DNA of 64,000 nt from a virus. Taxonomy: Duplodnaviria; Heunggongvirae; Uroviricota; Caudoviricetes. The stretch covers positions 29,244 to 93,243 of the IMG/VR virus record IMGVR_UViG_3300019867_000001, one strand, 5' to 3'. The position numbers and the translations under genes are program-made. Positions 8,527-51,130 of the stretch are shown here, piece by piece; the first letter of the stretch is position 1; every line of letters starts with the position of its first letter. Below the pieces are notes generated by a model that was given only the letters and a program-made list of their open reading frames with translations, searched no databases and had not been told where the DNA came from.

Positions 8527-8796
8527 CAGTGTGTTAAATAGAATTCGTTAGATTCTATCGGTATTGCGCCAAGTATTAATTTGCTTGGCGCGCAACTCCT
8601 GCATGTTACCATGCAGCTCAGACTATCTCTTATAAGAATACTGTCAAGTATTCAAATCTCCATGTTTCAGACCTACTTAGGCCTTACAGGTTTCATAATC
8701 CGTTCTGGATTGTATACCTTAGTCGTTGCACCTTCAAACCTATTCCTAGGTAAGCTTGGCTCAGGATTGTCCTATAACGATAGGAGTTTCCCTGAA
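8527..8796 (-). mobile_element. group I intron-like element (family A, no ORF) in the RNAP gene
   Basis: Non-coding block between RNAP motif-B and motif-C exons. Carries the family core (plus strand): atgcagctcagactat..., tagtcgttgcaccttcaaac, cttggctcaggattgtcc. Boundaries approximate. Confidence 0.45.
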
Positions 8797-9870
8797 TTAA
8801 TGGAGTTTATTCACAGCAAAGTATTTACTGTGATTTGCATTTACAGCATAAGCAGTACGTGCCTTACCAGTATCTGCAATGCTATTAATCTTTCCATCTT
8901 TGTTTATAAGTTCTTCCCACCATGTTGGATCAGTTTTTTGTGCAATTTGAAGTATATTAGTAACCCATTTACCTTCTGCATCTTTATAATTAAGTCTTTC
9001 TTCAAATACTTGAGTAAAGTTCTGTTCTATTATCTTACCATCAAAATTCACACTTGGAACATTGACCCAATTCTTTGGCATTTTATTTGCTATACCTATT
9101 TCTAATTCAAATAGCTTTTTAATTTGAAAAGGTTCTAATTGCAACATCTTAAAACCAGTAAGTCTATCTTTAGGTGCTTCTACACCATAAAGCATTTGAG
9201 CTAAAGTACTATCAGGCTTATACCAACCCATTTGCTTTAATACTTTCTCACTTAAAACTTCATCTTTCCAACCAAGCATTTCACTTATACGTTTAGGTAA
9301 TTTATAACCAGCCTTTTTAGTACCAAGAACTTTAGTTTTAAGGAACTCGACGTAGTCAATATCACTTTCTTTAGGTTTAGCATTAATCATGAAATCTTCA
9401 GCTAGCCTACCGTGAAAACGTGTAAATTCACGTAATACAGGTACTTGAGATTCCAAGTTTTCAGACATAATCTGAGCTATTAATTGGAAGTCTTTGGGTG
9501 TTACTCGTTTCTCATAAGCACCAGACATCTTTTCAACTAAATCTAAAGTTTTGCTGTCTAGAAAGTATAACTCTTCGAGTACATCATCGCCTGGAACTTG
9601 ACCTTTATTAAATATATCTTTTACATCTTGACGTAATGCAAGTAATTCTTGATGCATTTCAGGATCCCATTTTTCGTATCGAGCAGCACGAGCAGAGATT
9701 TCTGAGAGGATTTTATCGCGGTCTTTGGAGTTTACTACAAGTACGCCTTCTTGTTTATCTAAAGCTTTTGCAAGTTTTTGTTCTACATTAAGTATTCCTG
9801 TACGTTTTCCTGCACCATATCGAAATGTTAAATAGAATTCGTTAGATTCTACTAATTTTCTACAAAGCAA
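8797..9870 (-). CDS. single-subunit RNA polymerase, exon with motif B
   Basis: KPDSTLAQMLYGVEAPKDRLTGF aligns with T7 RNAP motif B (KRSVMTLAYGSKEFGF). The ORF ends read into intron sequence on both sides. Confidence 0.55.
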   Translation of the reverse strand: MLCRKLVESNEFYLTFRYGAGKRTGILNVEQKLAKALDKQEGVLVVNSKDRDKILSEISARAARYEKWDPEMHQELLALRQDVKDIFNKGQVPGDDVLEELYFLDSKTLDLVEKMSGAYEKRVTPKDFQLIAQIMSENLESQVPVLREFTRFHGRLAEDFMINAKPKESDIDYVEFLKTKVLGTKKAGYKLPKRISEMLGWKDEVLSEKVLKQMGWYKPDSTLAQMLYGVEAPKDRLTGFKMLQLEPFQIKKLFELEIGIANKMPKNWVNVPSVNFDGKIIEQNFTQVFEERLNYKDAEGKWVTNILQIAQKTDPTWWEELINKDGKINSIADTGKARTAYAVNANHSKYFAVNKLH

Positions 9871-10643
9871 TACTCAGGCATATTAACAGATTTTATTTTA
9901 TAACGTAAAGTTTCTCTGCAAATACCTAAAGCATTTGCAGCTTCCATTGTACTGTTAAATATACCAATCGGTGTTTTTACCTGTTTTCTATTACATGAAA
10001 TAGATCCAATTCTATTACTTTGTTTAGGAGGATCTAAGTAATAATATTCATCAGGATTTTCTAAACAACGCCTTGATACTGTTTTATTTGAAATACCATG
10101 CGCTGTTGATGCTGCACCTACATATGGAAATATACCTAATGGTGTTCTAATACGTCTACTCATACCATGATTCTCTTTACTTGCTGATACCATTTTTCTT
10201 ATACTACCTAAATCTTCAAAACCTTCTGTATGTCTTCTAATAATGTCCTGAAATGTACTTGCTGGAATTTTATGTGCTTCTGCTGCATCAAGATATGTTT
10301 TAAATATACCTAAAGGGGTTTTTACAGCTTTACATAACATTCCATATTTATTCATTGCATTATTTGAAGATCTAATCTCAATTTTATTTAATATATAATT
10401 AGATTTATTAGCACGCATCATAAAAAATGCCATTGCCATTTCAGGGCTGTTATGAATTTTAAATAATAACCAATGTGCTAACAAATGTTGTCTACCTGTT
10501 AAATATATTAAATTTGATTTATCATTATTACCACCTAAAGCTTTAGGTATAATATGATGACGTTCATAACCATTAGTATTAATAGGTCTATTTACAAATC
10601 CATATTTTTGTAATAGATTATTATAGTGTAACTTATAATTCAT
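9852..10643 (-). CDS. HNH homing endonuclease with three NUMOD3-like repeats (intron-encoded)
   Basis: HNH motif ERHHIIPKALGG...NLIYLTGRQH. Three K/RTPLGIF...A(A/E)A...GI repeats. Lies inside the intron between RNAP motif-A and motif-B exons, and overlaps the downstream exon start. Confidence 0.6.
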   Translation of the reverse strand: MNYKLHYNNLLQKYGFVNRPINTNGYERHHIIPKALGGNNDKSNLIYLTGRQHLLAHWLLFKIHNSPEMAMAFFMMRANKSNYILNKIEIRSSNNAMNKYGMLCKAVKTPLGIFKTYLDAAEAHKIPASTFQDIIRRHTEGFEDLGSIRKMVSASKENHGMSRRIRTPLGIFPYVGAASTAHGISNKTVSRRCLENPDEYYYLDPPKQSNRIGSISCNRKQVKTPIGIFNSTMEAANALGICRETLRYKIKSVNMPEYCFVEN

Positions 10644-11217
10644 TTAAGTTTCCTATATTTGCTTTGTTAAAATTCTACATATTCCTATGCAGTCCAGACT
10701 ATATCATCAAGCAAAAGATAAACTTAATTTATCAATTGTTTGTCGGGCGCTTCGATAGGACTTCCTATCTACTTCCTTTCGGAATAGTCGTTGCACCTTA
10801 AAACAAACCATTGTACCATATTTCATGGTACTATAGTAAGTAATCTTGGCTCAGGATTGACCGTTCTGGTGTTCCCCTGAATTCACCCGATTTTCGATGC
10901 ATATTACTATGCAAAGCCTCTATAAGTTAAAGGTGACCATATTTTGCCGTAAATGTTCAAATCTGTTCGTTACTCAGATTCGGTTTAATAATAAACTTCT
11001 ATTAATAAACACCTGCATGTCACCATGCAGCTCAGACTATATCTTCAAACAAAAATTACTTATTTTCGAATGTCCCGCGTTTCGACTGGACTACCAGTCT
11101 ATGGGTTTCATCTTCTGTTCTAGAAGGTATACCCTAGTCGTTGAACCTTCAAACTCATTCCTGAGTAAGCTTGGCTGCTGATTGACTCGTGTGAGCGTTT
11201 CCAGCAATTAACGGGAT
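9871..11217 (-). mobile_element. group I intron-like region with two tandem family-A cores (10681-10920 and 11021-11217) plus HNH ORF
   Basis: Both cores carry cagactatatcatca / tagtcgttg(c/a)accttcaa / cttggctc(ag)gattg blocks. The 100-nt spacer between them has stops in all frames. Could be tandem introns, a twintron, or a degenerate duplicate. Confidence 0.4.
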
Positions 11218-11640
11218 TTAGGCAAGACACAAAGAATTTATCTTGCTTGCCTTACGGAGGTCTTTTTCCGTAAGGCCTAACTTAACATTTAATTCTCGAA
11301 ATCTTGGATCATTAAATGTTAATGCAGCTATCTGATCATATAGACGCTTTTTATGATCAGTAGGGATCACATTACTTAACTCTGCTAACTGTTTGTTTTT
11401 AGTAGTAAGCGCTATGATCTGCGCACCACTACTTGATGCATCTTGCTCTAAGGCTAATGCTGTTTTATATGAATTAAGCTTTTCAAGTGACTTGACAGAG
11501 TAATTACCTTCTAAATAATTATCTATTTTAGCTGTTTCTTGAGCCAAACGTAAGACTTTACCTATATCTTCGGCATCAACATTTGCAAGGAATTTAGAAT
11601 CCAATATTGCGCGTATATCATTTGGTTTACCTTTAAGCAT
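11218..11640 (-). CDS. single-subunit RNA polymerase, exon with motif A
   Basis: MLKGKPNDI... aligns with T7 LAKGKPIGK. ALEQDASSSGAQIIAL aligns with T7 motif A (LAFDGSCSGIQHFSAM). Confidence 0.55.
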   Translation of the reverse strand: MLKGKPNDIRAILDSKFLANVDAEDIGKVLRLAQETAKIDNYLEGNYSVKSLEKLNSYKTALALEQDASSSGAQIIALTTKNKQLAELSNVIPTDHKKRLYDQIAALTFNDPRFRELNVKLGLTEKDLRKASKINSLCLA

Positions 11641-12805
11641 ATGATTGCCAATATCAACTAAGTCTTTACGCCAATATTGAGCTATTTGTTGTCTTCCAGT
11701 GATAGAAAGTGAATTGTATTTTAATTCGTATGAGTCATCTAAGCCGCCTAAGAATGCCCCAATTTGATCTTGAAAATTAGCAAAACCGGGTATTCCAAGA
11801 ATTTTCGATTCTTCAGTATTTAAAAACGGTCTACATTTATGTTCAAGTATATTCGCTAAATATACTCAGGCTTATCAGGCATTTATTAATAATTCTTCCA
11901 AGATCTTCCTTGTTTTATTCCACTAATTGTACCAGAATGAACTTTAAATTTTTTTGCAATATTAGCAAGGCTAATTCCATCAAGAAGCATTTGTCTTATA
12001 ATAGGAATATCTGTTACTGTTAATTTTTTTATAATTCCAACTTTATCAAAAACAGGTCGTTTTATATGTTTCCAACTAATTCCAACACGTATTTTATAAA
12101 TAGAAGAATGTACAATATTATATATTTTTGCTATTTCAATATCTGTACAACCATCTTTAATAAGTTCTATTATATCAAGAACATCAGATTCTTTTAATAT
12201 AGATTCAGGTCTATCCTCACCTTTACAACTACAATTATTAGTAATACCATGTTTATAATTATCAATAAGACTCATCCATTCTAAATTATTATAATTATTA
12301 TTAAGTTTATTACAATCTTTATGATTAACAGTTAAACCTTCAACATACCCATCTACAAAGGCTTTTGCAACAAGTCTATGTACAGTGCGTGTATTTAATT
12401 TACTGTCAAAAAATAAACTTATCTTTAAGTAACCCCTTTCAGTAAGTGATTGACTTAAGATATAATCATATTTATTTTTAACACGTCCTAATGAACTGAT
12501 TTCATACGTTGTATCTTCTATTTGTTTCCATATTTCTTCCATTTTACACCTAAATGTTGTGCCTGATAGCACTTCTGCAATTTCGTTTCCTTATATGCAG
12601 ATCAGACTATATCATCAACCCATAAAGGTTGTCGCGCGCTTCCACTAGGCTTCTAGTGTACAGACTTCATAATCCTTTAACAGGATCGTATGTCTTAGTC
12701 GTTGCACCTTCAAGAGTATTACTACTCAAGCTTGGCTCAGTATTGTCCTTGCGAGGATATCCACTGAATTCACGCGATTTTCGATGTATATTACTATACA
12801 AAGCG
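11641..12805 (-). mobile_element. group I intron-like element (family A) carrying an HNH endonuclease gene
   Basis: Family core at 12590-12805. The T7 alignment runs continuously across the junction (…GETLIS | MLKGKP…), so about 1.17 kb must be removed. Confidence 0.5.
11886..12572 (-). CDS. HNH homing endonuclease (NUMOD4-like N-terminus, C-terminal HTH), intron-encoded
   Basis: EEIWKQIEDTTYEISSLGRVKN resembles NUMOD4. HNH core VNHKDCNKLNNNYNNLEW. C-terminal GISLANIAKKFKVHSGTI looks like a helix-turn-helix. Confidence 0.55.
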   Translation of the reverse strand: MLSGTTFRCKMEEIWKQIEDTTYEISSLGRVKNKYDYILSQSLTERGYLKISLFFDSKLNTRTVHRLVAKAFVDGYVEGLTVNHKDCNKLNNNYNNLEWMSLIDNYKHGITNNCSCKGEDRPESILKESDVLDIIELIKDGCTDIEIAKIYNIVHSSIYKIRVGISWKHIKRPVFDKVGIIKKLTVTDIPIIRQMLLDGISLANIAKKFKVHSGTISGIKQGRSWKNY

Positions 12806-13282
12806 TCAAGAAATTAACGTTTCCCCTGATTGAACACCGATAAGTCCACGTTCATAAATCCTAGCTCTATGATCCAAAAATGGATGATTACTAAAAGCAT
12901 AATTATTCTTTCTTAACCACTCCATCGCCTTAAGTCGTTCATAAGAATCTCCACGTTCAATCATAAACTCACGATAACGATTTAAGTCATTGTAGTATTG
13001 AGCTTTACCTTTATCATCTTGAAAATTAAGCAATTTACCTATAAAATCATGAAATTCAGGGTCTATTTTATACTTAGCATTTGCTGTCCAATTAAGAGCA
13101 TCAGTCATGTCTTTATCTATTAGCTTGGTAGGAAAATTCTTAAAGCTATCTGTTGATGTTAAAGGTATCTGTGTATCTCTGTTTTTATAATCAAAATAAG
13201 TTTTATAGCCTTCACGTATTTTAAGTCTATTCTTATCATCTACTACGCTTACTCTTAATCCTAATTCAATTTTTCGTTGCAA
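12806..13282 (-). CDS. single-subunit RNA polymerase, exon with T/DxxGR motif
   Basis: NNYAFSNHPFLDHRARIYERG aligns with T7 ANHKAIWFPYNMDWRGRVYA. The coding frame stays open upstream into 13283-13450. Confidence 0.55.
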   Translation of the reverse strand: MQRKIELGLRVSVVDDKNRLKIREGYKTYFDYKNRDTQIPLTSTDSFKNFPTKLIDKDMTDALNWTANAKYKIDPEFHDFIGKLLNFQDDKGKAQYYNDLNRYREFMIERGDSYERLKAMEWLRKNNYAFSNHPFLDHRARIYERGLIGVQSGETLIS

Positions 13283-13672
13283 TTTAGAATACTCTTGAAT
13301 TCGAGGATCGACAATTCTAAGATTAACTGAGAATGTGTCGTAGTACGGACCCGTTTTGTTAGATGGTCTTCGTTAAAGATCATCAAATGCTTGCCATTTA
13401 TTTCTCTATGTGTTGTGCTGGCAAGCACTTCTGCAATTTCAAAAATAAACTCATTTAATTATATGCAGACCAGACTATATCATCATCCTATTACTAGGAT
13501 GCTGCGCGCTTTGAGCAGACTTCTGCCCTATGGACTTCATCGTCTGTTCTAGACGGTATGTCCTAGTCGTTGAACCTTCGAACCTGTCCCCAGGTAAGCT
13601 TGGCTGCTGATTGTCCTGAAAGATTTTTTAACGAAAAATCTTATAGGATGTTCCAGCAATTCACGCAGTTAT
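13283..13672 (-). mobile_element. group I intron-like element (family A) with a decayed endonuclease-gene start, between MuF gene and RNAP exon
   Basis: Family core at 13451-13672. Its 3' tail (gaaattgcagaagtgct…aaataaATGgcaagcatTTGA) is homologous to the region preceding the HNH ORF at 12572, but here the ORF stops after 4 codons. The 5' family sequence extends into the last codons of the MuF ORF. Confidence 0.4.
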
Positions 13673-16600
13673 TCAATATACATTACTGTATAAGGCTTCA
13701 TTTAAAAAGTATCTTCTGCCTACTCTACTCTTCATTCGTCGTTTTTGTACACCATAAGTTTCTAATTTATAAATACCCTTGTCATCTGCAACATCCAGAA
13801 GTTTTACGCCTAGTTCAAACCATTCTTTTCGGCTACCTCTATAATTAGCCATATTATAAAGATCACGACCTAAACTAACAGCGAATTGATCTCTATCAGG
13901 CATATCAGCTAATGAAAGCCTATGGGCAAACTTTAAGTAAAATTCTGATAAATCACGGTCTGTTAGACTTAAAAAGTTTTTCTTTAGAGGCAATTTTGGA
14001 TCAATAAAAACCCTACCTAAAACTCCTCTTAACTCTCTTGCAATTTTAGGCGCAGTAGTATTTTCCCAAGTATTTCGCTTTTGTATATTCTCAAGAAAGT
14101 TATCATGTAAATCTTGTAATTGGACTGGTCCTAAAACTGGATCAATGTAATTTTCTTGCTTCAGCTTGAAAAGTAAATTAGCATCTTTGCGTATTTGTGT
14201 TTCAATGTAATCAGACACATTCATTACATCAAATTTCATTTGTCCATTTAGAACAGCTTTTAAATTAGCCCAAGGTATTTTGTTTTCACGTGCTCGTTGA
14301 AATATAATCCTTAAATTATCCGTTATAACAGCACGTTGATTAGTACCCATATGACCATCAAGGTCATCTACAAACTTAAGTATAAAGTCTTTATCTTTAG
14401 GTAGTAATACCTCTGATTCTTCTACTAGTCTTTTAGTATTCTCTAATACCTGCATATTTGGTTGGTAAATCCTTGCATCATCATACCTACCAGTAAAGGG
14501 ATTATACTTCAAATTATCTTCAGTAGGCGGTGAACTTAATACTCTAATTTTAGTATTACGTTTATTATGTAATAATGTACCCCTATAATTAGTAAGCGAA
14601 AGCATTCCATCCAACTCACCATCCTGTAGCAAATAATACTCTTTAAGTGCTTTTTGAAATTCTTTAGATTCTAAAATTTCATCAGGACGTGCTGCACCAA
14701 GTTTAAGAGTATCAAGTTTTTCTTTAGCTAATGCAAATCTACGTGTATCTCCTGGTAAAGCATAACCTGGATCTGTAAGTTTACGGAGTTCCTTAATACC
14801 TATTGAATTGCCTTCATCATTAGTAAATTTATCAAGAGTTAATTGTCCACTTCTGAATACTTCAAGTTTTTTGATATCTCCTAAATGCCTTAACTGAACT
14901 TCTGATGCTTGCCGCGTCAGCCATTCATTATAGGATTCCTTTAATGGAGACTGCCCATCATAAAATGCAATTTGCTTATCAGTTAATCCTTCGAGATTCC
15001 GTTTACGTATTTGGGCTATCCCTTCAAGTTCACCTAGTTGCTCATAGCTTTTTACAATCGGTATAGTAGAGGATCTACAATTACTACCCCAAATTATCTT
15101 ACCATTTCTTTTAGTAAGCAATGTATGCTTATCAGCTAATTCTATATCATAAACTTTGTATAGGCCATCACATTCAACTATAATAGTAGCATCCGTTAAC
15201 CTTCTATATTGACTTCTATTCCAAGCAATATGATAAACTAAATAATTACCATCAATTGTATCTCCATTTTTCTTTATAACAAAACTTGGAAGTCGTTCAT
15301 AAACACTTGCTGAATCCCCAACTTTAATTATAAGTTCACATAAATCTGCCATTAATTGTTTTGAAGTAGTAAAAAATTTTCTTACTAGATTTGAAGTATA
15401 TCCTTCAAAATCAGATTGTTTAACAGAAGTACCATCTCCTAACAAGTATGCTTCAAGAAAAACTAATAAATCACTTTTAGGTAAATTTTTAATTTCTTTT
15501 GGTATATACTTTTCAGTACATTTTCCAAATTTTAATAACCAATTATTTAAATTTTGATCAACAAAACCTAATCCAGTTTGACGATTAGATGGGTTTAATT
15601 CTTTTAATTCTTCTAACATTAATTGTTTATGTGTATACTGCGAAATACAACAATCAATGTAACCTTTATTTTTAATTGATACAGATCCATCCGATAACCA
15701 CCAAGCCATAAATTTACAAAATATAGAAACAGATGGAAATTCAAAATTATTTACAATTATTTTATCTATACTTTTGCCTATCCACTTAGATGATGCAAAC
15801 ATTCTAAAATCAACTTTAGGCGGTATATCTAAAATTGAATTATAATATTTTGGTAAATATTCTTTATAATTGCCTCTATCAACCCTCTTTTGTCCTATGA
15901 AAGGATGATCTGCAGTTACTGCGATGTCGACTGAAAATGCTTTTATAAAAATTATCTCTTCAACTTCTTTTTCAAATTTAGTTATAATTGGTTGCCAAGT
16001 TAAGTCTTCAGTTTCAGGATCTAAAGATAAACATTTTTCATTTATAATTGTATCTTTAATTAATTTAAATCCATTTTCAGTCAATACTTCTGTATCTTCC
16101 AGGTAACAGAAAAAGTGACTGGGCGGGAGATGACTTGTATCACTTATTGGGTACACAGTGCCATCTCGATGAGCACAAAGTGGCGTTGTTCTGCTATCCA
16201 ATACAGCAACATATTGCCATCCTTGTAATGCTTTTTCATTAACTTTATAAACTTCGTGATCTGTTTGAGCGTATACACTTGTAATAGCAGTAGTAACTAA
16301 GCCTTGAGATTGGTTCTTTGTTATTTTAAATATACTACCTTTACGTACATTTAAGGCTATTTCTTCTTCTGTAAGTCCTTCTGCTAATCCTTTACGTATT
16401 AACGATTCAATCCTAATCTTCTCACCTTTAGCAATACTATTCCAGCCTTGAGCTAGAGTTTGATTGCTATAAATTGGACGTGATAAAACTATATCCTCAG
16501 CTATCCTTCGAGTAGGCTTAGAAGTATGCCAAATTTTGCCTAAAGACGCATCTAAACTTTGATATGTATACGAAATTTGATCTCCAACTAAATCAAGCAA

Positions 16601-16870
16601 TGATCGTTTAGTAGTTGTATGTAAAGCATGAGTTGTTCTTGCTAATTCTGCATCTACAGCTTCTCTAAATTTAATAAAACCAGGTCCATTCATTTTAGCT
16701 TTACGTACCAAGTCTTCGATTTTAACTGCATGCCCATCTACTATTAATGATACTTTGCCTTGAACTCTTCGCTCATAAAGTCTTATCATTGCTGATCGAT
16801 CTATTGATTTATCATAAATTTCAGTATTTACATTTATAGCAGTCATACTAATCCTTAATAAAGTAATCAA
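13673..16870 (-). CDS. head morphogenesis protein (Mu F / SPP1 gp7 family) with intein and long C-terminal extension
   Basis: Exteins reconstitute the Mu-F signature ...YVAVLDSRTTPLCAHRDGTVYP...LPPSHFF|CRSS (H.NCRC-like). 1065 aa, including a 343-aa intein and about 470 aa after the MuF domain. Confidence 0.6.
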   Translation of the reverse strand: MITLLRISMTAINVNTEIYDKSIDRSAMIRLYERRVQGKVSLIVDGHAVKIEDLVRKAKMNGPGFIKFREAVDAELARTTHALHTTTKRSLLDLVGDQISYTYQSLDASLGKIWHTSKPTRRIAEDIVLSRPIYSNQTLAQGWNSIAKGEKIRIESLIRKGLAEGLTEEEIALNVRKGSIFKITKNQSQGLVTTAITSVYAQTDHEVYKVNEKALQGWQYVAVLDSRTTPLCAHRDGTVYPISDTSHLPPSHFFCYLEDTEVLTENGFKLIKDTIINEKCLSLDPETEDLTWQPIITKFEKEVEEIIFIKAFSVDIAVTADHPFIGQKRVDRGNYKEYLPKYYNSILDIPPKVDFRMFASSKWIGKSIDKIIVNNFEFPSVSIFCKFMAWWLSDGSVSIKNKGYIDCCISQYTHKQLMLEELKELNPSNRQTGLGFVDQNLNNWLLKFGKCTEKYIPKEIKNLPKSDLLVFLEAYLLGDGTSVKQSDFEGYTSNLVRKFFTTSKQLMADLCELIIKVGDSASVYERLPSFVIKKNGDTIDGNYLVYHIAWNRSQYRRLTDATIIVECDGLYKVYDIELADKHTLLTKRNGKIIWGSNCRSSTIPIVKSYEQLGELEGIAQIRKRNLEGLTDKQIAFYDGQSPLKESYNEWLTRQASEVQLRHLGDIKKLEVFRSGQLTLDKFTNDEGNSIGIKELRKLTDPGYALPGDTRRFALAKEKLDTLKLGAARPDEILESKEFQKALKEYYLLQDGELDGMLSLTNYRGTLLHNKRNTKIRVLSSPPTEDNLKYNPFTGRYDDARIYQPNMQVLENTKRLVEESEVLLPKDKDFILKFVDDLDGHMGTNQRAVITDNLRIIFQRARENKIPWANLKAVLNGQMKFDVMNVSDYIETQIRKDANLLFKLKQENYIDPVLGPVQLQDLHDNFLENIQKRNTWENTTAPKIARELRGVLGRVFIDPKLPLKKNFLSLTDRDLSEFYLKFAHRLSLADMPDRDQFAVSLGRDLYNMANYRGSRKEWFELGVKLLDVADDKGIYKLETYGVQKRRMKSRVGRRYFLNEALYSNVY
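15080..16108 (-). mobile_element. intein with LAGLIDADG homing endonuclease in the MuF protein (residues 255-597)
   Basis: N-terminal block CYLEDTEVLTENG. Two LAGLIDADG motifs (FMAWWLSDGS, LEAYLLGDGTS). C-terminal ...IIWGSN followed by extein Cys. Flanks rejoin to HFF-CRSS. Confidence 0.6.
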
Positions 16871-23800: not shown

Positions 23801-24355
23801 TCAGAATCCAAATCCTCTTACAGCTGGAATACTACTAGATCTAATTGAAAAAAGATACTCTATGGAATAGCGAACACCATCTGAGAAATGTTCTACACCT
23901 TCCTTTTTATCTATAGTTGCTGAATCAGGGTTGTTATCAAGCCAAGAAGTACGTTCTATAGACATAATAGTTCCAGTACAACGTGGATGAAAAAACAAGT
24001 TAATCTCGCCTGCTGCTGTCTTAAGCATACGATTTACAGCATTCACTGAATCCACAATAGGTGGCGATTTATTATGTGAAAATACTCTAAAACCATAAGA
24101 TCCAAGTATATTAAAATCTGTTCTACCCATTACAGCTGAAGTTTTTCTGCTCTTCCCTGTAGGATCGGGATATAATGAGATCTTACAAGGCTTTACTCGA
24201 GTCTTTTCATACTTAGGCCAGTAACGTCCTATAATAGCACGAGCTAACATATCAGTATCAGGGAATCCTTGTAATTCATCTAAATACTGAACTTGTCCAC
24301 CTCTAACTGCAAATACTGAAGAGCATTGGAGACCTACGTTAAACCAGTTGTTCAT
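23801..24355 (-). CDS. terminase large subunit, exon 2 (nuclease domain)
   Basis: 184 aa with RNase-H-like terminase nuclease features (…HFSDGVRY…). Downstream of the ATPase exon. Confidence 0.5.
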   Translation of the reverse strand: MNNWFNVGLQCSSVFAVRGGQVQYLDELQGFPDTDMLARAIIGRYWPKYEKTRVKPCKISLYPDPTGKSRKTSAVMGRTDFNILGSYGFRVFSHNKSPPIVDSVNAVNRMLKTAAGEINLFFHPRCTGTIMSIERTSWLDNNPDSATIDKKEGVEHFSDGVRYSIEYLFSIRSSSIPAVRGFGF

Positions 24356-25082
24356 TAAAGCTCGTTAAACTTTAACCGAGTCTTGAAGATACCCAATTGC
24401 ACTTTTAAGACTATTTATATTGTCTTTAAAAGCACCTAAACCAGTATTACAAAAACCACAAAGAACACCACGAATTTCGCCTGTAAGATGATCATGATCA
24501 ATTACAGCTTCTTCACTAATATTCTTTCCATGGCCTTGTTTAAGTTTAAAATTTGTTATATTGCCACAAATCGCACATAGATTATTTTGCTTTTGAAGAA
24601 AAGAATCACGTTCTTCTAAAGATAAACTATGTTTACGTTTGTAATACCATTTTGATTGTCGTTCTTTACCACATTCTTTACAATAAGTTTGTAATTTATC
24701 TGCTCTATACGCATTATTACTAAACTCAGTAAATGTTTTTTCTTTACGACAAACATAACAAATTTTAAAACCTTCTCTTTGATTGAAATTTAATTTATTT
24801 CTTGTTAATGGAATATTTCCATTTTCAGTCAAATGTACTGGTAATTTAAACACTATATCTCCTAACTCTGCTATACATTACTGTATAGAGCAGACTATAT
24901 TATCAAAAGTCTTTAGTGGAGTAGCTTTTAAATTAAAGCCACATCCCAACCTTTGTTCGGCGCTTCCACTGGACTTCCAGTGTACTCCTTTACAGGATAG
25001 TCGTTGCACCTTCAAACTTTAAATTAAGCATACTTTGTATGCTAAACTCTTAGTAAGCTTGGCTCAGGATTGACCACGAGGG
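24356..25082 (-). mobile_element. group I intron-like element (family A) with EndoVII-type HEG, in terminase large subunit gene
   Basis: Family core 24880-25082 plus ORF 24365..24853. The family sequence overlaps the last codons of the exon-1 ORF, so the true 5' splice site is slightly upstream of 25083. Confidence 0.45.
24365..24853 (-). CDS. endonuclease VII-family homing endonuclease (intron-encoded)
   Basis: Cys/His zinc clusters typical of T4 endoVII-like nucleases (CAICG...DHDHLTGEIRGVLCGFCN). Confidence 0.5.
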   Translation of the reverse strand: MFKLPVHLTENGNIPLTRNKLNFNQREGFKICYVCRKEKTFTEFSNNAYRADKLQTYCKECGKERQSKWYYKRKHSLSLEERDSFLQKQNNLCAICGNITNFKLKQGHGKNISEEAVIDHDHLTGEIRGVLCGFCNTGLGAFKDNINSLKSAIGYLQDSVKV

Positions 25083-25958
25083 TTATCCCCTGAGTTCACC
25101 GAATTTTATATCGACCAATAAATCGATACCAATATGAATATCCTCAATGATATCCCCTTCATCATTCATTTTAAACCATTCTAAATCATTTCTAATATGT
25201 AGTTTTCGGTCAAAACAATAAAATACATTATTTCCTGATTCTTGGAATGATGCCAAATACTCCCTCGCGAATCGAATGGGGTCTATGTTATGACGAATAC
25301 GCTCTATTTCAACAGGATCTAAGAGTGGACTTGTTGTATAGTCAAGTTGGTAACTTTTCCAAGTGACGTCAGTATCCTGAAATGTAAACATTTCATAAAG
25401 ATAATCATAACCTTTAGGAGTACTAATAGTAAGTGACCTACCGCTTCGAGGACTTCCGTATTGCTTAGCCTGTTTTGGGCTCCAACGAGTTACTATGGTT
25501 GGCTGAATTATTGATTCCCAAGCTTCCTTTGCTCCTGGAGTTTTAGCCCAATCACGTATTTCATCATTAACGACATAATAAGCTCCACTTCCACGAAGTC
25601 TCTCTATTGCTTCAAAAGAAATTAACTTGAGTTCCACATTCTTAGGAAACCATAACCTGCCTGCATCACGAGAGTACTTCAAGCAATATCCTGATAAACC
25701 TAATTCATAGATAAGTAAAGGAAAGTATATTTCAGAAACCTGCGTATATGTTGGTGCAATAATTAATACATTTTTATTAGGCACAGACTCATCAAGTTGC
25801 ATGAGCTCAAATATAGCATTTGTTGCACAAGTGGCAGCTAAGAAAGATTTGCCCCAGCCTCTCGACGTCACTGCGACTATATTTTGTACTATATCCTTTA
25901 AGAATATTTCTGAGAATATCTCACTCTGCTTTGGGTGAAGTGTGATCGTTGAATTCAT
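25083..25958 (-). CDS. terminase large subunit, exon 1 (ATPase domain)
   Basis: Walker A VTSRGWGKS, Walker B-like VVNDE. Confidence 0.55.
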   Translation of the reverse strand: MNSTITLHPKQSEIFSEIFLKDIVQNIVAVTSRGWGKSFLAATCATNAIFELMQLDESVPNKNVLIIAPTYTQVSEIYFPLLIYELGLSGYCLKYSRDAGRLWFPKNVELKLISFEAIERLRGSGAYYVVNDEIRDWAKTPGAKEAWESIIQPTIVTRWSPKQAKQYGSPRSGRSLTISTPKGYDYLYEMFTFQDTDVTWKSYQLDYTTSPLLDPVEIERIRHNIDPIRFAREYLASFQESGNNVFYCFDRKLHIRNDLEWFKMNDEGDIIEDIHIGIDLLVDIKFGELRG

Positions 25959-26742
25959 CTAAAATTGACCTATTTCTATAATCTTTATTACCTTTAGCTT
26001 TTAAATAAGCTTGAGATGCTTCTTCGGATGTATTAAAAGTACCTAAATAAATAGATTTTTTATTTTCCATAATATCAGCTCTATATCTATTTCTAGCTTT
26101 ACGGACACCTATAGGTAATCCAGTAGTTAATTCTAAATATACTTTTTCACTAATTAAATTTTTTTCAAATGCGATATCTTGACATTTCTTAAAAACCAAG
26201 TTTTCATCAAATTCTCTTAGATTTTCAGCTATTTTTCGAAAACGCATGCTTATCTTATTAAAAACTGAATCTCTTAACAAAGAATCTGGTAACGAATTAA
26301 TATAAGTATTTAAATCAGACTTATCTCTATTCATATTGTATTCTTCAACCCAAGATTTCTTCTTTTTCTTTAAGTATAAATTTTCAATCGCCAAATTATG
26401 TGGGTTTTCATCTTTAAAACAAACTTTCATATTGTCAGGAATACTATCATTATGGTATATCCAAATCAAATAATGATATCTAAATGGTATATTATCAATT
26501 TGAATAACCCATCTATTCCAAGGTTGAATAAAACAACCTGGTTCTGATTTAGTAGTATAATATGGTTTTTCTTTATACTTAAATTTACCATTTTCATAAA
26601 TAAATCTTCGTTTTAATTCTTCTGAAGTTATAGGTCTATTAGGGGATATTTTTAGCATTTGATAGCCTAGCAGTATCAAAATCAACAGGAGTCCCTGTGA
26701 GATTAATTTGAATTGGCATTGTAGCCATAGTATTAATCTCAA
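25921..26742 (-). CDS. HNH-AP2-like homing endonuclease (free-standing, between putative terS and terL)
   Basis: Degenerate HNH region (YHNDSIPDNMKVCFKDENPHNLAIENLYL). Clear AP2-like C-terminus (GVRKARNRYRADIMENKKSIYLGTFNTSEEASQAY). Confidence 0.45.
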   Translation of the reverse strand: MRLILWLQCQFKLISQGLLLILILLGYQMLKISPNRPITSEELKRRFIYENGKFKYKEKPYYTTKSEPGCFIQPWNRWVIQIDNIPFRYHYLIWIYHNDSIPDNMKVCFKDENPHNLAIENLYLKKKKKSWVEEYNMNRDKSDLNTYINSLPDSLLRDSVFNKISMRFRKIAENLREFDENLVFKKCQDIAFEKNLISEKVYLELTTGLPIGVRKARNRYRADIMENKKSIYLGTFNTSEEASQAYLKAKGNKDYRNRSILDEFNDHTSPKAE

Positions 26743-27127
26743 CAGTTTCTATTGCTCGAGCATAGCCATAACGTAACAAGTCACTGATGATCCTTTGTTT
26801 AACTGACACAAGTGTAGTCATTGCTATTGTTGAAAACCGCTTAGGATCACCAGTTTCATCATACATCATATTAAAAATATCTTTTTCAAGCTGACGATAC
26901 ATTTCTATCATCTGCTCAATAGGATCAAATTGCAGCTCTTCTAACTTCTTCGCAGCTTTCTTTGAGTAAATCCTAGTCTCTCGAGGAGATTCGATTATAT
27001 CATCTGGAAGTTTATCTAAATGAAATAATTCAAGCGGCTCGCCCATCGTATCACCTGTATGCAATAAATTGGAAAAACGGACATTTACCATGTGGTGTTC
27101 GCTTTCCTTCGGAAAGCTTTTGGACAC
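26639..27127 (-). CDS. hypothetical protein; possible small terminase subunit by position
   Basis: 162-aa ORF at the head of the packaging module, directly flanking the repeat hub. Confidence 0.25.
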   Translation of the reverse strand: MSKSFPKESEHHMVNVRFSNLLHTGDTMGEPLELFHLDKLPDDIIESPRETRIYSKKAAKKLEELQFDPIEQMIEMYRQLEKDIFNMMYDETGDPKRFSTIAMTTLVSVKQRIISDLLRYGYARAIETVEINTMATMPIQINLTGTPVDFDTARLSNAKNIP

Positions 27128-49788: not shown

Positions 49789-50018
49789 TATCTAAACTCC
49801 AATTCTAATCCTTTTATTTCAGCTTTCATAAATTGATGCCATTGATATTCTAATGTACCATCTATTTCTTTATTTTCTATATATAACTTTTTACCATTTA
49901 GAATTTTAATTTTAGCTTCCATTAAATACCAACCATTATCATTATAATGATTAATTTCTGTTTCTGAGAATACTTCTGTTAGGCGTTTCATCTTACAGGA
50001 CACACTCCAGTTGAACAA
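49788..50018 (-). CDS. hypothetical protein
   Basis: 76-aa ORF overlapping the RNR exon-2 end. Confidence 0.2.
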   Translation of the reverse strand: MFNWSVSCKMKRLTEVFSETEINHYNDNGWYLMEAKIKILNGKKLYIENKEIDGTLEYQWHQFMKAEIKGLELEFR

Positions 50019-50872
50019 TCATCTAATCCCTCAAACTCTGCATAGTTTAACATTGTAATTGGTTTTACTGTAGCAATAAGTTTATCATATTCTTCTTTAG
50101 TAATCTCTTCATATGGTGCTTGTGCAAATCCATGTTCTGAATGTAATAAAAATGATAAAGTTTTATAGTTATCTTTATAATGCGCTGTTAAATACTCTTT
50201 GATTTCTGGTAATTCTTCTTTTTTATAGTATACTGTACATGATACTGAATTATCACTCCAGAATTCTTGCAGCTTCTTGATTTCTTTTAATTGATCTATT
50301 GCTGTCATATCTTTAGCAAGTTTAGTCCCTTCAGGATACATAAAGGGAAATGTTACAACTACTGTATTATAATCTTCAGAACCATCAAAGTTCCGTTGGT
50401 ATTCTACGGGGTATCCATGTAATTTGCAAATATTAACGAGTTCATGTTCTGCTGATATACGAATACGTCTTAGCATATGTGATGAAAACCCTGGATGAAT
50501 TCCAGGCGAAACTCCTGGTAAAAGGGATAAGGAACCCGAGGGCTGTACCGTAGTCAATTTAATTGACTTGTTAAAACCGTGAAGTTCCGAATAACGCTTG
50601 TCGTAATCACGTATATGCTCATAACCTTCATTTAACCATGAAAGCTGCTCTTGTGATGCTTGCATAATTCCAGTTAATGAAATACCCATTCTTTGATTTT
50701 TCTTTACAATTGCCTCAGTTTCAGGATGATGACATGGTAGCTGAAGTGAATGTTTACTTATACGATAAAGTAGTGTTATAAGATCTATGAATTCTTCTTG
50801 ATTTGCTATATTTGGAAGAAATACAGTACTTAACGTACAAGTTTCCATTGGAGCTAAACTTTGTTCTGCACA
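49988..50872 (-). CDS. nrdJ: class II (B12-dependent) ribonucleotide reductase NrdJ, exon 2
   Basis: Begins …CAEQSLAPMETCTLSTVFL, i.e. the second half of the NPC(G/A)E radical-Cys motif plus the C(N/T)L motif. The first 14 codons of the ORF (to 50914) are intron sequence. Confidence 0.6.
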   Translation of the reverse strand, partial: CAEQSLAPMETCTLSTVFLPNIANQEEFIDLITLLYRISKHSLQLPCHHPETEAIVKKNQRMGISLTGIMQASQEQLSWLNEGYEHIRDYDKRYSELHGFNKSIKLTTVQPSGSLSLLPGVSPGIHPGFSSHMLRRIRISAEHELVNICKLHGYPVEYQRNFDGSEDYNTVVVTFPFMYPEGTKLAKDMTAIDQLKEIKKLQEFWSDNSVSCTVYYKKEELPEIKEYLTAHYKDNYKTLSFLLHSEHGFAQAPYEEITKEEYDKLIATVKPITMLNYAEFEGLDDCSTGVCPVR

Positions 50873-51130
50873 CTGCTTTGTTACTACAAAACACAAAATA
50901 CAAGTATTTTGCATTAAGTGGTATAGTCATTTCTGCTATACTCTATGCATCCCTGCATAGCACGGACTGTATCATATACCAAACTGAGGAATTTGGTACT
51001 CCTTGTCAGTCTCTAGCGCCTCTTGATTATAGGGACCATAATCAGAATTGCGTCGGGATTGTCTGTTCTAGAGTTTCCCCGATATTCGGATTTTCGAAAG
51101 AGATTACTCTCTTAAGCCCCAATGTTGTTT
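50873..51130 (-). mobile_element. group I intron (family B, ORF-less, about 258 nt) in nrdJ
   Basis: Splits the NP|CAEQ motif. Exon 1 ends …AAC CCU (U before the splice site). The intron ends in G. It contains GGGGAAAC (P4-like), GCUAGAGACUGACAAGG (R-like) and AUGAUACAGUCCG (S-like). Confidence 0.5.

What the first reader, a model, noticed from the sequence alone, without database searches (positions are those of the whole stretch)
23801..25958. Large terminase gene split between ATPase and nuclease domains by an intron carrying an endonuclease-VII-type homing endonuclease
- **Split domains.** The Walker-A ATPase exon (25083..25958) and the nuclease exon (23801..24355) are separated by a family-A intron core (24880-25082) plus an EndoVII-like ORF (24365..24853).
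- **Splice site inside the ORF.** The intron family sequence overlaps the last codons of the exon-1 ORF (…FGELRG*), so the true 5' splice site is inside the annotated ORF.

Terminase is an essential late gene, so splicing must be efficient. EndoVII-family HEGs in group I introns are rare.
Basis: partly seen in the sequence, partly recalled or inferred. Interest (0 to 1): 0.6.

Follow-up and report, generated by a model that had tools for sequence, protein, structure and literature searches.

The report
Mobile self-splicing intron in phage terminase
The phage's DNA-packaging enzyme gene is interrupted by a self-splicing group I intron carrying its own homing endonuclease; the reading is correct, but a published relative (roseophage DSS3_VP1) has the same arrangement, so it is a new example of a known thing.

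Summary
Confirmed. On the minus strand, terL is interrupted by a 778-nt IA-type group I intron (25121..24344). A 162-aa EndoVII-motif (DHHRN) homing endonuclease ORF (24853..24365) lies in its P9.1 loop.

The 5' splice site follows U25122, which forms the U•G pair of P1. The 3' splice site follows G24344. Joining the exons gives an in-frame 459-aa TerL that restores the family-invariant IGID|FNVG motif and aligns end to end with intron-less homologs.

Covariation supports the core and a 3' hairpin beyond the ORF. A sister contig (L159) has the same intron, 98% identical, without the ORF.

- The intron cuts inside the nuclease domain, right after the invariant (probably catalytic) Asp codon. 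It does not sit at the ATPase/nuclease boundary.
- The 3' splice site is also inside the called exon-2 ORF.
- EndoVII-type intron endonucleases are not rare. The DHHRN family is published, and DSS3_VP1's terL intron with such a gene was described in 2021.

Modestly new:
- This terL family has two recurrent insertion sites 12 nt apart.
- The window's endonuclease belongs to a clade otherwise found at the other site.

Splicing and cleavage are inferred, not shown.

The parts
25122..25958 (-). terL exon 1. It encodes the ATPase domain (Walker A SRGWGKS), the linker and the first nuclease strand, ending ...IHIGID. The last codon is GAT and its U25122 is the 5' splice-site U.
   Evidence: Terminase_6N hit. 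51-54% identity to DSS3_VP1, DSS3_PM1 and EBPR siphovirus 1 TerL. The junction was placed by alignment to intron-less alleles.
24344..25121 (-). Group I intron, 778 nt, IA-type: P7.1 and P7.2 are present and there is no P2.
   Evidence: Rfam 68.1 bits, E=2e-16. nhmmer E=6e-45. The MFE fold recovers the helices with z=-6.3. Covariation supports the structure. Removing the intron gives an in-frame 459-aa TerL.
25109..25128 (-). P1. The exon strand UAUCGAU (25128..25122) pairs with the internal guide GUCGAUA (25115..25109). U25122 pairs with G25115 as the U•G wobble at the 5' splice site.
   Evidence: U•G is invariant in 8 of 8 family members, and 5 of 7 P1 pairs covary with the exon context.
24871..25103 (-). 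Ribozyme core: P3 (25103-25097 with 24962-24956), P4/P5, P6, P7 (25002-24998 with 24897-24893), P7.1 (24997-24986), P7.2 (24982-24967), P8 (24955-24904), J8/7 (24903-24898) and P9 with a GUAA loop (24888-24871).
   Evidence: Coordinates. Of 50 pairs, 98.7% of cells pair and 28 pairs show double changes, against about 35% paired in slid controls.
24901..24901 (-). A in J8/7 where every other family member, including the 98%-identical L159, has G.
   Evidence: Alignment A5 and the window versus L159 comparison. The functional effect is unknown.
24855..24862 (-). P9.1 5' strand, GGAGAUAU. It contains the GGAG of the endonuclease ORF's Shine-Dalgarno sequence.
   Evidence: In L159 these bases form the hairpin GGAGA-UUAA-UCUUC.
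24365..24853 (-). Homing endonuclease ORF, 162 aa, GTG start, EndoVII-motif (DHHRN) type. It has an N-terminal zinc site (C32xxC35, C58xxC61) and the catalytic motif C93xxC96, D119-H120-D121-H122, R128 and C132xxC135-N136. Its stop codon lies in the P9.2 loop.
   Evidence: PF02945 at 1.7e-18. Hpy99I at 1.6e-7 and T4 endonuclease VII at 3e-4. Motif positions. 50% identical to the DSS3_VP1 terL-intron ORF.
24391..24857 (-). The roughly 464-nt segment (the ORF and a few flanking bases) that is absent from the otherwise 98%-identical intron in L159. It marks the endonuclease gene as an insert in loop L9.1.
24385..24392 (-). P9.1 3' strand, GUAUCUUC, inside the last codons of the ORF.
24354..24377 (-). 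P9.2 hairpin: stem GUUAAAG/CUUUAAU with the conserved loop UUUAACGAG.
   Evidence: Across nine introns the 7 pairs are 100% paired and 6 of 7 show compensatory changes. The covariation score is 1.12 against at most 0.24 for slid controls.
24344..24353 (-). Conserved 3' terminal segment GAACAACUGG, ending in omega-G at 24344.
   Evidence: The motif UGAACAnnnnG| is conserved in all family members. In the window the tail motif occurs only at intron 3' ends.
23801..24343 (-). terL exon 2, the rest of the nuclease domain. It starts TTT AAC GTA GGT (FNVG).
   Evidence: About 51-54% identity to the C-terminal half of DSS3_PM1, DSS3_VP1 and EBPR siphovirus 1 TerL. Frame and junction.

Best explanation
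terL is interrupted by a mobile IA-type group I intron, 778 nt long (25121..24344, minus strand).

Splicing (inferred). The pre-mRNA folds into the ribozyme. The internal guide sequence pairs with the last seven exon-1 bases (P1), placing the U25122•G25115 wobble at the 5' splice site. An external guanosine attacks there. The P9.1 and P9.2 helices then bring the distant 3' end back to the core, omega-G24344 docks, and the exons are ligated. The product is a 459-aa TerL with the motif IGID|FNVG restored.

Why splicing is needed. The intron follows the codon of the invariant, probably catalytic Asp of the nuclease domain. Neither called ORF alone could therefore form a complete nuclease.

Mobility (inferred). 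A 162-aa EndoVII-motif (DHHRN) ββα-Me endonuclease with two zinc sites is encoded in loop L9.1. Its ribosome-binding site forms part of the P9.1 stem. The endonuclease is inferred to cut intron-less terL alleles in the highly conserved ATHGAYTTYAAYGTNGG stretch during mixed infection. Repair from the intron-bearing genome would then copy the intron, or the endonuclease gene itself, into the cut allele.

Shown here: the RNA structure, the boundaries, the restored reading frame, and presence/absence polymorphism of both the intron and the ORF. Inferred: splicing in vivo, endonuclease activity and target, and occlusion of the ribosome-binding site.
For: Intron identity
- Rfam 68 bits, E=2e-16; nhmmer E=6e-45; MFE z=-6.3 with P1, P3-P9, P7.1 and P7.2 recovered.
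- Core covariation: 98.7% of 399 cells pair, 28 of 50 pairs have double changes, and the score is 0.55 against at most 0.09 for slid controls. U•G is invariant in 8 of 8, and P1 tracks the exon context.
- P9.2 beyond the ORF: 100% paired, 6 of 7 pairs compensatory.

Splice product
- In frame, 459 aa.
- 52% identical to the intact DSS3_PM1 TerL over the full length, E=7e-176, with no gap at the junction.
- The closest uninterrupted homologs read IG(I/V)DFNVGLQCSS.
- D-F-N-V is invariant in 30 homologs.
- The site lies on the first nuclease-domain strand of a TerL-fold model.

Mobility signatures
- Most relatives are uninterrupted.
- At least 4 lineages have the intron at D|F and at least 13 at G|x.
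- All intron-bearing alleles whose DNA I could read use GAT| or GGT|, as the splice-site U requires.
- L159 has the same intron at 98% identity without the ORF, with P9.1 as a simple hairpin.
- L061 keeps only a remnant of the ORF.

Endonuclease
- PF02945 at 1.7e-18; the full DHHRN motif and an AGGAG ribosome-binding site; Hpy99I and T4 EndoVII similarity.

Precedent
- DSS3_VP1 terL intron (PMC8323127), the DHHRN family (PMC6083498), and terL introns shown to splice in Bastillevirinae (PMC11878797).
Against: - No RNA or enzymatic data exist. Splicing and cleavage are inferred.
- J8/7 has A24901 where all other family members, including the 98%-identical L159, have G.
- By inspection, P10 forms 5 bp in the D|F-site relatives L074 and L076 but at most 1 bp in the window.
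- The window's 8-bp P9.1 is not significant on its own: 140 of 1000 shuffles score as well.
- No intron-less allele of this same phage lineage was found.
- The co-conversion test was inconclusive.
- The only other assembly of this phage (L077) is 100% identical, so it adds no independent evidence.
Confidence: 0.88

Rival explanations
1. The intron is a splicing-dead relic. TerL is made as two separate polypeptides, ATPase from 25958..25083 and nuclease from 24355..23801, which assemble non-covalently.
For: Both halves are open ORFs, and the second has an ATG. J8/7 carries a non-consensus A at 24901, and P10 is essentially absent (inspection).
Against: - The invariant Asp of the first nuclease strand would sit on the ATPase fragment, followed by 12 intron-encoded residues. 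The second fragment would begin with MNNW in place of that strand.
- Every core helix, the U•G pair, omega-G and the P7 sequence are intact.
- No Shine-Dalgarno sequence precedes the exon-2 ATG, whereas the endonuclease ORF has AGGAG. This is a weak argument, because terL itself also lacks an obvious one.
- The sister intron in L159 is 98% identical, so there has been little time for decay.
Confidence: 0.05
2. The intron splices, but the EndoVII-type ORF is no longer a working homing endonuclease. It could be decaying, or it could serve another role such as helping splicing.
For: The family goes through gain and loss of the ORF. L061-63 keep only a remnant and L159 lacks the ORF altogether. 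No cleavage data exist.
Against: The ORF is full length and has a strong ribosome-binding site. Every residue that Fang et al. 2018 found conserved in this family, five of which they showed to be essential in F-CphI, is present, and so are both zinc sites. All 30 relatives conserve these positions.
Confidence: 0.15
3. The intron and the endonuclease gene are independent mobile units. An ORF-less intron already sat at the D|F site (the L159 state). It later acquired, in loop L9.1, an endonuclease gene from introns at the neighbouring G|x site. On this view the endonuclease did not bring the intron to this position.
For: - The window's endonuclease is 63% and 57% identical to G|x-site ones (L071, L059) but only 41-43% identical to the other D|F-site ones (L074, L076).
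- Its nearest relatives with recoverable context (L155-L157) are all at G|x.
- L159 is the same intron without the ORF and without any ORF remnant.
- The P9/P9.1 and P9.2 flanks are conserved and could support recombination.
Against: A clean deletion of the ORF in L159 explains the polymorphism equally well. The sample is small. The intron cores do not resolve the relationships: the window is 70-74% identical to both site classes.
Confidence: 0.3

Closest known systems
Group I intron with an endonuclease VII-type gene in terL of roseophage DSS3_VP1 (Naomviridae; Rihtman et al. 2021, PMC8323127; GenBank MN602266)
   Same: - Same TerL family (51% identity in exon 1).
- Same intron family: P7.1/P7.2, no P2, ORF in L9.1, and a P9.2 hairpin with a UAACGA loop.
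- The endonuclease is 50% identical.
- Same conserved nuclease motif is targeted.
   Different: - The VP1 intron lies after IDFNVG (G|x), 12 nt downstream of the window's D|F site, with a different guide sequence (GCCCAC versus GUCGAUA).
- VP1's P9.1 does not include the ribosome-binding site.
- The host genome is GC-rich, whereas the window is 33% GC.
[quoted passage not shown] 2018, PMC6083498)
   Same: [quoted passage not shown]
   Different: - F-CphI is free-standing, next to an intron.
- The three podovirus intron-encoded members named there sit in DNA polymerase genes; none of the seven is reported in terL.
- This protein has an extra N-terminal zinc ribbon, like Hpy99I.
Hpy99I restriction endonuclease (PDB 3FC3) and T4 endonuclease VII (PDB 1E7D)
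   Same: ββα-Me catalytic core with structural zinc sites. The Hpy99I alignment covers residues 30-157, including both CxxC pairs.
   Different: These are a restriction enzyme and a Holliday-junction resolvase, not homing enzymes. Similarity is low (E=1.6e-7 and 3e-4).
terL group I introns of Bastillevirinae, for example SIOphi (NAR 2025, PMC11878797)
   Same: Group I introns with endonuclease genes in phage terL. SIOphi terL splicing was shown both in vitro and in vivo.
   Different: The phages are unrelated, and their terL introns carry Vsr-like endonucleases. Their insertion sites were not compared here.
Phage T4 nrdD (sunY) intron with I-TevII (from memory, not checked here)
   Same: An IA-type phage intron whose ORF lies 3' of the catalytic core, so the distant 3' splice site has to be brought back by peripheral P9 pairings.
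   Different: The host gene and the endonuclease family both differ.

Membership tests
Group I intron (Rfam RF00028) | Covariance-model score above the curated gathering score | tested here: met
   68.1 bits against 50, E=2e-16, full model 1-253. The match is missed when 64 kb is scanned at once.
Group I intron (Rfam RF00028) | P1 helix formed by an internal guide sequence, with a U•G wobble at the 5' splice site | tested here: met
   UAUCGAU/GUCGAUA with U25122•G25115. U•G is invariant in 8 of 8 relatives, and P1 covaries with the exon.
Group I intron (Rfam RF00028) | Conserved core P3-P9, including the P3/P7 pseudoknot, supported by covariation | tested here: met
   98.7% of cells pair and 28 of 50 pairs have double changes. 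P7 is invariant.
Group I intron (Rfam RF00028) | Terminal guanosine (omega-G), and exon ligation that restores the host reading frame | tested here: met
   G24344. The product is an in-frame 459-aa TerL that is collinear with intron-less alleles.
Group I intron (Rfam RF00028) | Guanosine-dependent self-splicing | not testable with these tools
   Needs an in vitro transcript assay or RT-PCR.
Subgroup IA2 (T4 td/nrdB/nrdD type) | P7.1 and P7.2 between P7 and P3' | tested here: met
   P7.1 at 24997-24986 and P7.2 at 24982-24967. All 9 pairs covary.
Subgroup IA2 (T4 td/nrdB/nrdD type) | P2 present (typical of IA2; from memory) | tested here: not met
   Only 5 nt (UAAAA) separate P1 and P3. I therefore call it 'IA-type' and do not assign a subgroup.
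DHHRN / EndoVII-motif homing endonucleases (PMC6083498) | Endonuclease_7 domain with CX2-4C...DHDH...R...CX2C-N, located in the C-terminal part of the protein | tested here: met
   PF02945 at 66.8 bits against 23.6. C93xxC96, D119-H120-D121-H122, R128 and C132xxC135-N136 in a 162-aa protein.
DHHRN / EndoVII-motif homing endonucleases (PMC6083498) | Encoded in, or next to, a mobile intron that shows presence/absence polymorphism | tested here: met
   Intron-less, intron-plus-ORF, ORF-remnant and ORF-less alleles all exist.
DHHRN / EndoVII-motif homing endonucleases (PMC6083498) | Site-specific cleavage of the intron-less allele, and resistance of the intron-bearing allele | not testable with these tools
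   Needs purified protein and target DNA.
Large terminase (TerL) | N-terminal packaging ATPase followed by a C-terminal RNase H-like nuclease | tested here: met
   Terminase_6N hit. The model of the 64%-identical homolog P0035 matches D6E, T4 gp17, Sf6 and HK97 TerL and isolated nuclease domains.

The most novel reading that the evidence does not exclude
One endonuclease clade serves two intron insertion sites 12 nt apart (D|F and G|x) in the same conserved terL nuclease motif. The window's D|F-site element carries an endonuclease from a clade otherwise found at G|x. This implies that the enzyme's target spans both sites. It also implies that either the endonuclease gene hops between neighbouring introns through the conserved P9.1/P9.2 flanks, or the intron itself has moved 12 nt, for example by reverse splicing into the similar sequence (A/G)UCG(A/G)U. 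If so, this would be a natural system for studying how intron position and endonuclease specificity become uncoupled.
Probability: 0.35. Interest if true: 0.45.

Novelty: new member of a known kind. Interest (0 to 1): 0.27.

Why it matters
- Annotation. terL here should be annotated as one spliced 459-aa gene with join(25958..25122, 24343..23801) on the minus strand, not as two genes. TerL-based phylogeny and packaging-type prediction need the spliced sequence.
- Method. Default Rfam scans of long contigs silently miss a 68-bit intron, so split phage genes deserve targeted re-scans of short slices.
- Biology. This terL family (Naomviridae and relatives) shows intron-less, intron-plus-endonuclease, remnant and ORF-less alleles at two sites 12 nt apart within an active-site motif. 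That makes it a compact natural series for studying the homing endonuclease gain and loss cycle. The concept itself is well established.

Tried and rejected
- Whole-window Rfam scans, in both gathering and permissive modes, did not report the terL intron. This is a filter artefact and not evidence of absence.
- A sequence search of TerL against the PDB matched only the ATPase domain weakly. I used a structure model and a fold search instead.
- An automatic search for P9.1 picked the wrong stems in 3 of 8 introns. I redid it with tighter windows and shuffles.
- The co-conversion test compared exon identity next to the intron between D|F-site alleles. The first 30 nt are 87% and 73% identical against about 60% overall. 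That stretch is the conserved motif anyway, so the result is inconclusive.
- An exact-match search for an intron-less allele of this phage's junction in metagenomes found nothing.
- The other assembly, L077, is 100% identical and so adds no independent variation.
- The region near 51.1 kb gave a weak intron-profile hit but no Rfam match. It is left unexplained.
- An intein was considered and rejected. The insert is RNA-structured, interrupts the frame with a stop, and has its own ribosome-binding site.
- A free-standing endonuclease gene between two separate genes was considered and rejected. The flanking ORFs are the two halves of one conserved protein.
Full report
**1. What is in the sequence**

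All features lie on the minus strand.
- ORF 25958..25083 (291 aa) matches Terminase_6N.
- ORF 24853..24365 (162 aa, GTG start) matches Endonuclease_7 (PF02945) at 66.8 bits against a cut-off of 23.6.
- ORF 24355..23801 (184 aa) has no Pfam hit.

By tblastn, the first and third ORFs are 51-54% identical to the N- and C-terminal halves of TerL from the roseophages DSS3_VP1 and DSS3_PM1 (Naomviridae) and EBPR siphovirus 1. In DSS3_PM1 and EBPR siphovirus 1 the two halves form one continuous gene.

Rfam's group I intron model matches 25159..24871 at 68.1 bits (gathering score 50), E=2e-16, over the full model length. This appears only when a 3.7-kb slice is searched. Both whole-window scans miss it, which is a filter artefact. 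An nhmmer profile built from the window's other introns finds it at E=6e-45.

**2. Exact boundaries**

Intron-less homologs read ...H(V/I)(A/G)IDFNVG(I/L)(M/Q)...
- The window's exon-1 ORF reads ...HIGID and then diverges (LLVDIKFGELRG*).
- The exon-2 ORF reads MNNW and then FNVGLQCSS....

The last seven exon-1 bases, UAUCGAU (25128..25122), pair with GUCGAUA (25115..25109). U25122•G25115 is the wobble pair that marks a group I 5' splice site. An unconstrained MFE fold finds this hairpin (z=-6.3).

The 3' end is ...UGAACAACUGG|UUUAAC, with omega-G at 24344. Joining 25958..25122 to 24343..23801 gives an in-frame 459-aa protein. It aligns with the intact DSS3_PM1 TerL over its full length at 52% identity, E=7e-176, with no gap at the junction. 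The closest uninterrupted homologs in the large protein database (63-65% identity) read IG(I/V)DFNVGLQCSS, exactly the predicted product.

The intron is therefore 25121..24344, 778 nt. Both splice sites lie inside the mechanically called ORFs.

**3. RNA structure**

The core has P1, P3, P4/P5, P6, P7, P7.1, P7.2, P8 and P9 with a GUAA loop. There is no P2 (coordinates). P7.1 and P7.2 mark it as IA-type.

I aligned eight terL introns of this family, drawn from three insertion contexts.
- 98.7% of 399 cells pair.
- 28 of 50 pairs show changes on both sides.
- The covariation score is 0.55, against at most 0.09 when partners are slid. No shuffle out of 500 reaches the observed value.
- The U•G at the splice site is invariant.
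- The P1 guide changes in step with whichever exon sequence precedes the intron.

Downstream of the ORF, all family members end with a hairpin, P9.2, with loop NNUAACGAN, followed by UGAACAnnnnG|.
- In nine introns, the seven P9.2 pairs are 100% paired and six show compensatory changes.
- The score is 1.12 against at most 0.24 for slid controls.

A further stem, P9.1, joins the bases just after P9 to the bases just before P9.2, which puts the ORF in loop L9.1.
- P9.1 is individually significant in six of eight introns.
- In the window it is an 8-bp stem, GGAGAUAU/GUAUCUUC, that includes the GGAG of the ORF's ribosome-binding site.
- On its own the window's stem is weak, because 140 of 1000 shuffles score as well.

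**4. Natural deletion variant**

Contig L159 (Ga0184621_10008528) carries the same intron at the same D|F site.
- The core is 98% identical, and exon 2 is 93% identical at the protein level.
- It lacks window 24857..24391 (about 464 nt), which is the endonuclease ORF.
- In its place it reads GGAGA-UUAA-UCUUC, a hairpin made of the two predicted P9.1 strands.
- This 315-nt form folds into the same helices (z=-6.0).

L159 confirms P9.1 and shows that the ORF is a discrete insert in L9.1.

**5. Where the intron sits in the protein**

I modelled P0035, a 64%-identical uninterrupted homolog (AlphaFold2, pLDDT 83.5).
- The model matches the full-length large terminases of D6E, T4, Sf6 and HK97, and the isolated nuclease domains of G20c, P22 and SPP1.
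- The ATPase domain ends near residue 255.
- The family-invariant D280-F-N-V lies at the end of strand 275-281, the first strand after the ATPase domain and linker.

From general knowledge of TerL nucleases, whose first catalytic Asp lies at the end of strand 1 of the RNase H-like fold, this Asp is probably catalytic. I did not obtain a residue-level superposition.

The intron therefore follows the Asp codon inside the nuclease domain and does not sit at the domain boundary. A two-polypeptide terminase would separate that Asp from the rest of the active site.

**6. The endonuclease**

The protein carries C93xxC96, D119-H120-D121-H122, R128 and C132xxC135-N136. It also has a second zinc site (C32xxC35, C58xxC61) and an AGGAG 7 nt before its GTG start. 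Its best solved relatives are the restriction enzyme Hpy99I (E=1.6e-7, covering residues 30-157) and T4 endonuclease VII (E=3e-4). These are the features of the DHHRN family defined by Fang et al. 2018 (PMC6083498). Its stop codon lies in the P9.2 loop.

**7. Distribution**

Most relatives of this TerL are uninterrupted. The interrupted ones fall into three classes.
- D|F site, as in the window: L159 (ORF-less), L074/L075, L076, and P0106 (inferred from its read-through peptide and gene order).
- G|x site, 12 nt downstream, after IDFNVG: DSS3_VP1, L059, L061-63 (321 nt, with the ORF remnant MKKCCICK), L071 (from a Flavobacterium sp. MAG assembly), L080-82, L155-157, and four more inferred from read-through peptides.
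- Just before Walker B (residues 125|126): L056, which has the same intron family but an HNH_3-type endonuclease.

Both nuclease-motif sites lie in the most conserved DNA stretch, ATHGAY|TTYAAYGTNGGN|. The intron-bearing alleles whose DNA I could read all use the T-ending codon before the intron. Intron-less alleles mostly use GAC and mixed GGN codons.

The window's endonuclease is 63% and 57% identical to those of L071 and L059 (G|x site), but only 41-43% identical to those of L074 and L076 (D|F site). Its nearest relatives with recoverable context are all at G|x. The intron cores are 70-74% identical across both classes and do not resolve the relationships.

**8. Comparison with the literature**

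- Rihtman et al. [quoted passage not shown]
- Fang et al. 2018 list EndoVII-motif endonucleases embedded in group I introns of DNA polymerase genes in three podoviruses, plus intron-encoded ones in four myoviruses.
- terL introns occur in 5 of 52 Bastillevirinae, and SIOphi terL splices both in vitro and in vivo (PMC11878797).
- A 2014 review names terminases among the usual targets (PMC3984707).

The window is thus a new member of a published kind. The D|F site, the ORF-less sister allele, and the mismatch between endonuclease clade and insertion site are modest additions.

**9. Caveats**

- Nothing here shows splicing or cleavage directly.
- The window's J8/7 has A24901, where all relatives, including L159, have G. 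From memory, the efficient Azoarcus ribozyme also has A at the equivalent position, so this may be harmless. I did not check that.
- By inspection, P10 forms 5 bp in L074 and L076 (exon UUUAA with UUAAG) but is essentially absent in the window, whose L1 loop is 3 nt shorter.
- No intron-less allele of this exact lineage was found.
- The co-conversion test was inconclusive.

**10. Verdict**

The rarity argument is not supported. Novelty: new member of a known kind. Interest is low to moderate.

Noticed in passing
window 25921..26742 (-): A free-standing 273-aa HNH_3 + AP2-domain endonuclease ORF lies between a putative small terminase gene (27127..26639) and terL. It overlaps the terL start by 38 nt. 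This makes two selfish endonuclease genes within 2.4 kb of the packaging module.
   Followed up: partly
window 8599..16870 (-): One long gene starts with a Phage_Mu_F head-morphogenesis domain (13673..16870, 1065 aa). It appears to continue into exons resembling a T7-type single-subunit RNA polymerase (weak PF00940 hit on 11218..11640). It is interrupted by five group I introns at 8599-8836, 10675-10939, 11013-11323, 12575-12826 and 13451-13716. At least two of them carry HNH endonuclease ORFs (11886..12572 and 9852..10643). A MuF-RNA polymerase fusion with five introns looks more unusual than the terL finding.
   Followed up: partly
window 10940..11012 (-): The introns at 11013-11323 and 10675-10939 are nearly adjacent. 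The first ends with the family's 3' tail (UAACGA...UGAACAUUUACGG, around 10950), and the next intron's Rfam match starts at 10939. The exon between them would be only about 10-20 nt.
   Followed up: no
window 49988..53293 (-): The class II (B12-dependent) ribonucleotide reductase gene at 51104..53293 contains an intein with a LAGLIDADG domain. Its C-terminal barrel continues in a separate ORF at 49988..50914. The gap of about 190 nt gives a weak intron-profile hit at 51123..51053 (E=9e-5) but no Rfam match. What separates the two ORFs is unexplained.
   Followed up: partly
whole window: Rfam cmscan misses a 68-bit full-length group I intron when 64 kb is scanned at once, in both the gathering and the permissive modes. 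It finds the intron on a 3.7-kb slice (versus 3). Other structured RNAs in long contigs may be lost in the same way.
   Followed up: yes
L056:2040-3000 (IMG/VR UViG_3300026478_000380): A third insertion site exists in the same TerL family. An intron of the same RNA family, with the same P9.2 and tail, lies just before the Walker B motif (residues 125|126). It carries a different, HNH_3-type endonuclease of about 220 aa.
   Followed up: partly
L071 / L078 (GCA_043534155.1, contig JBFDMO010002903.1): A terL locus with this intron and endonuclease sits on a 34-kb contig deposited in a Flavobacterium sp. MAG assembly. Together with the window's 33% GC, this hints at a Bacteroidota host for this branch, unlike the roseobacter hosts of the Naomviridae.
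   Followed up: no
G|x-site exon sequence AACGTCGGT (L059, L061, L071, L155-157): The exon sequence just before the G|x intron often contains CGTCG. This matches CGWCG, the recognition site of Hpy99I, the endonuclease's closest solved relative. It may be coincidence and was not tested.
   Followed up: no
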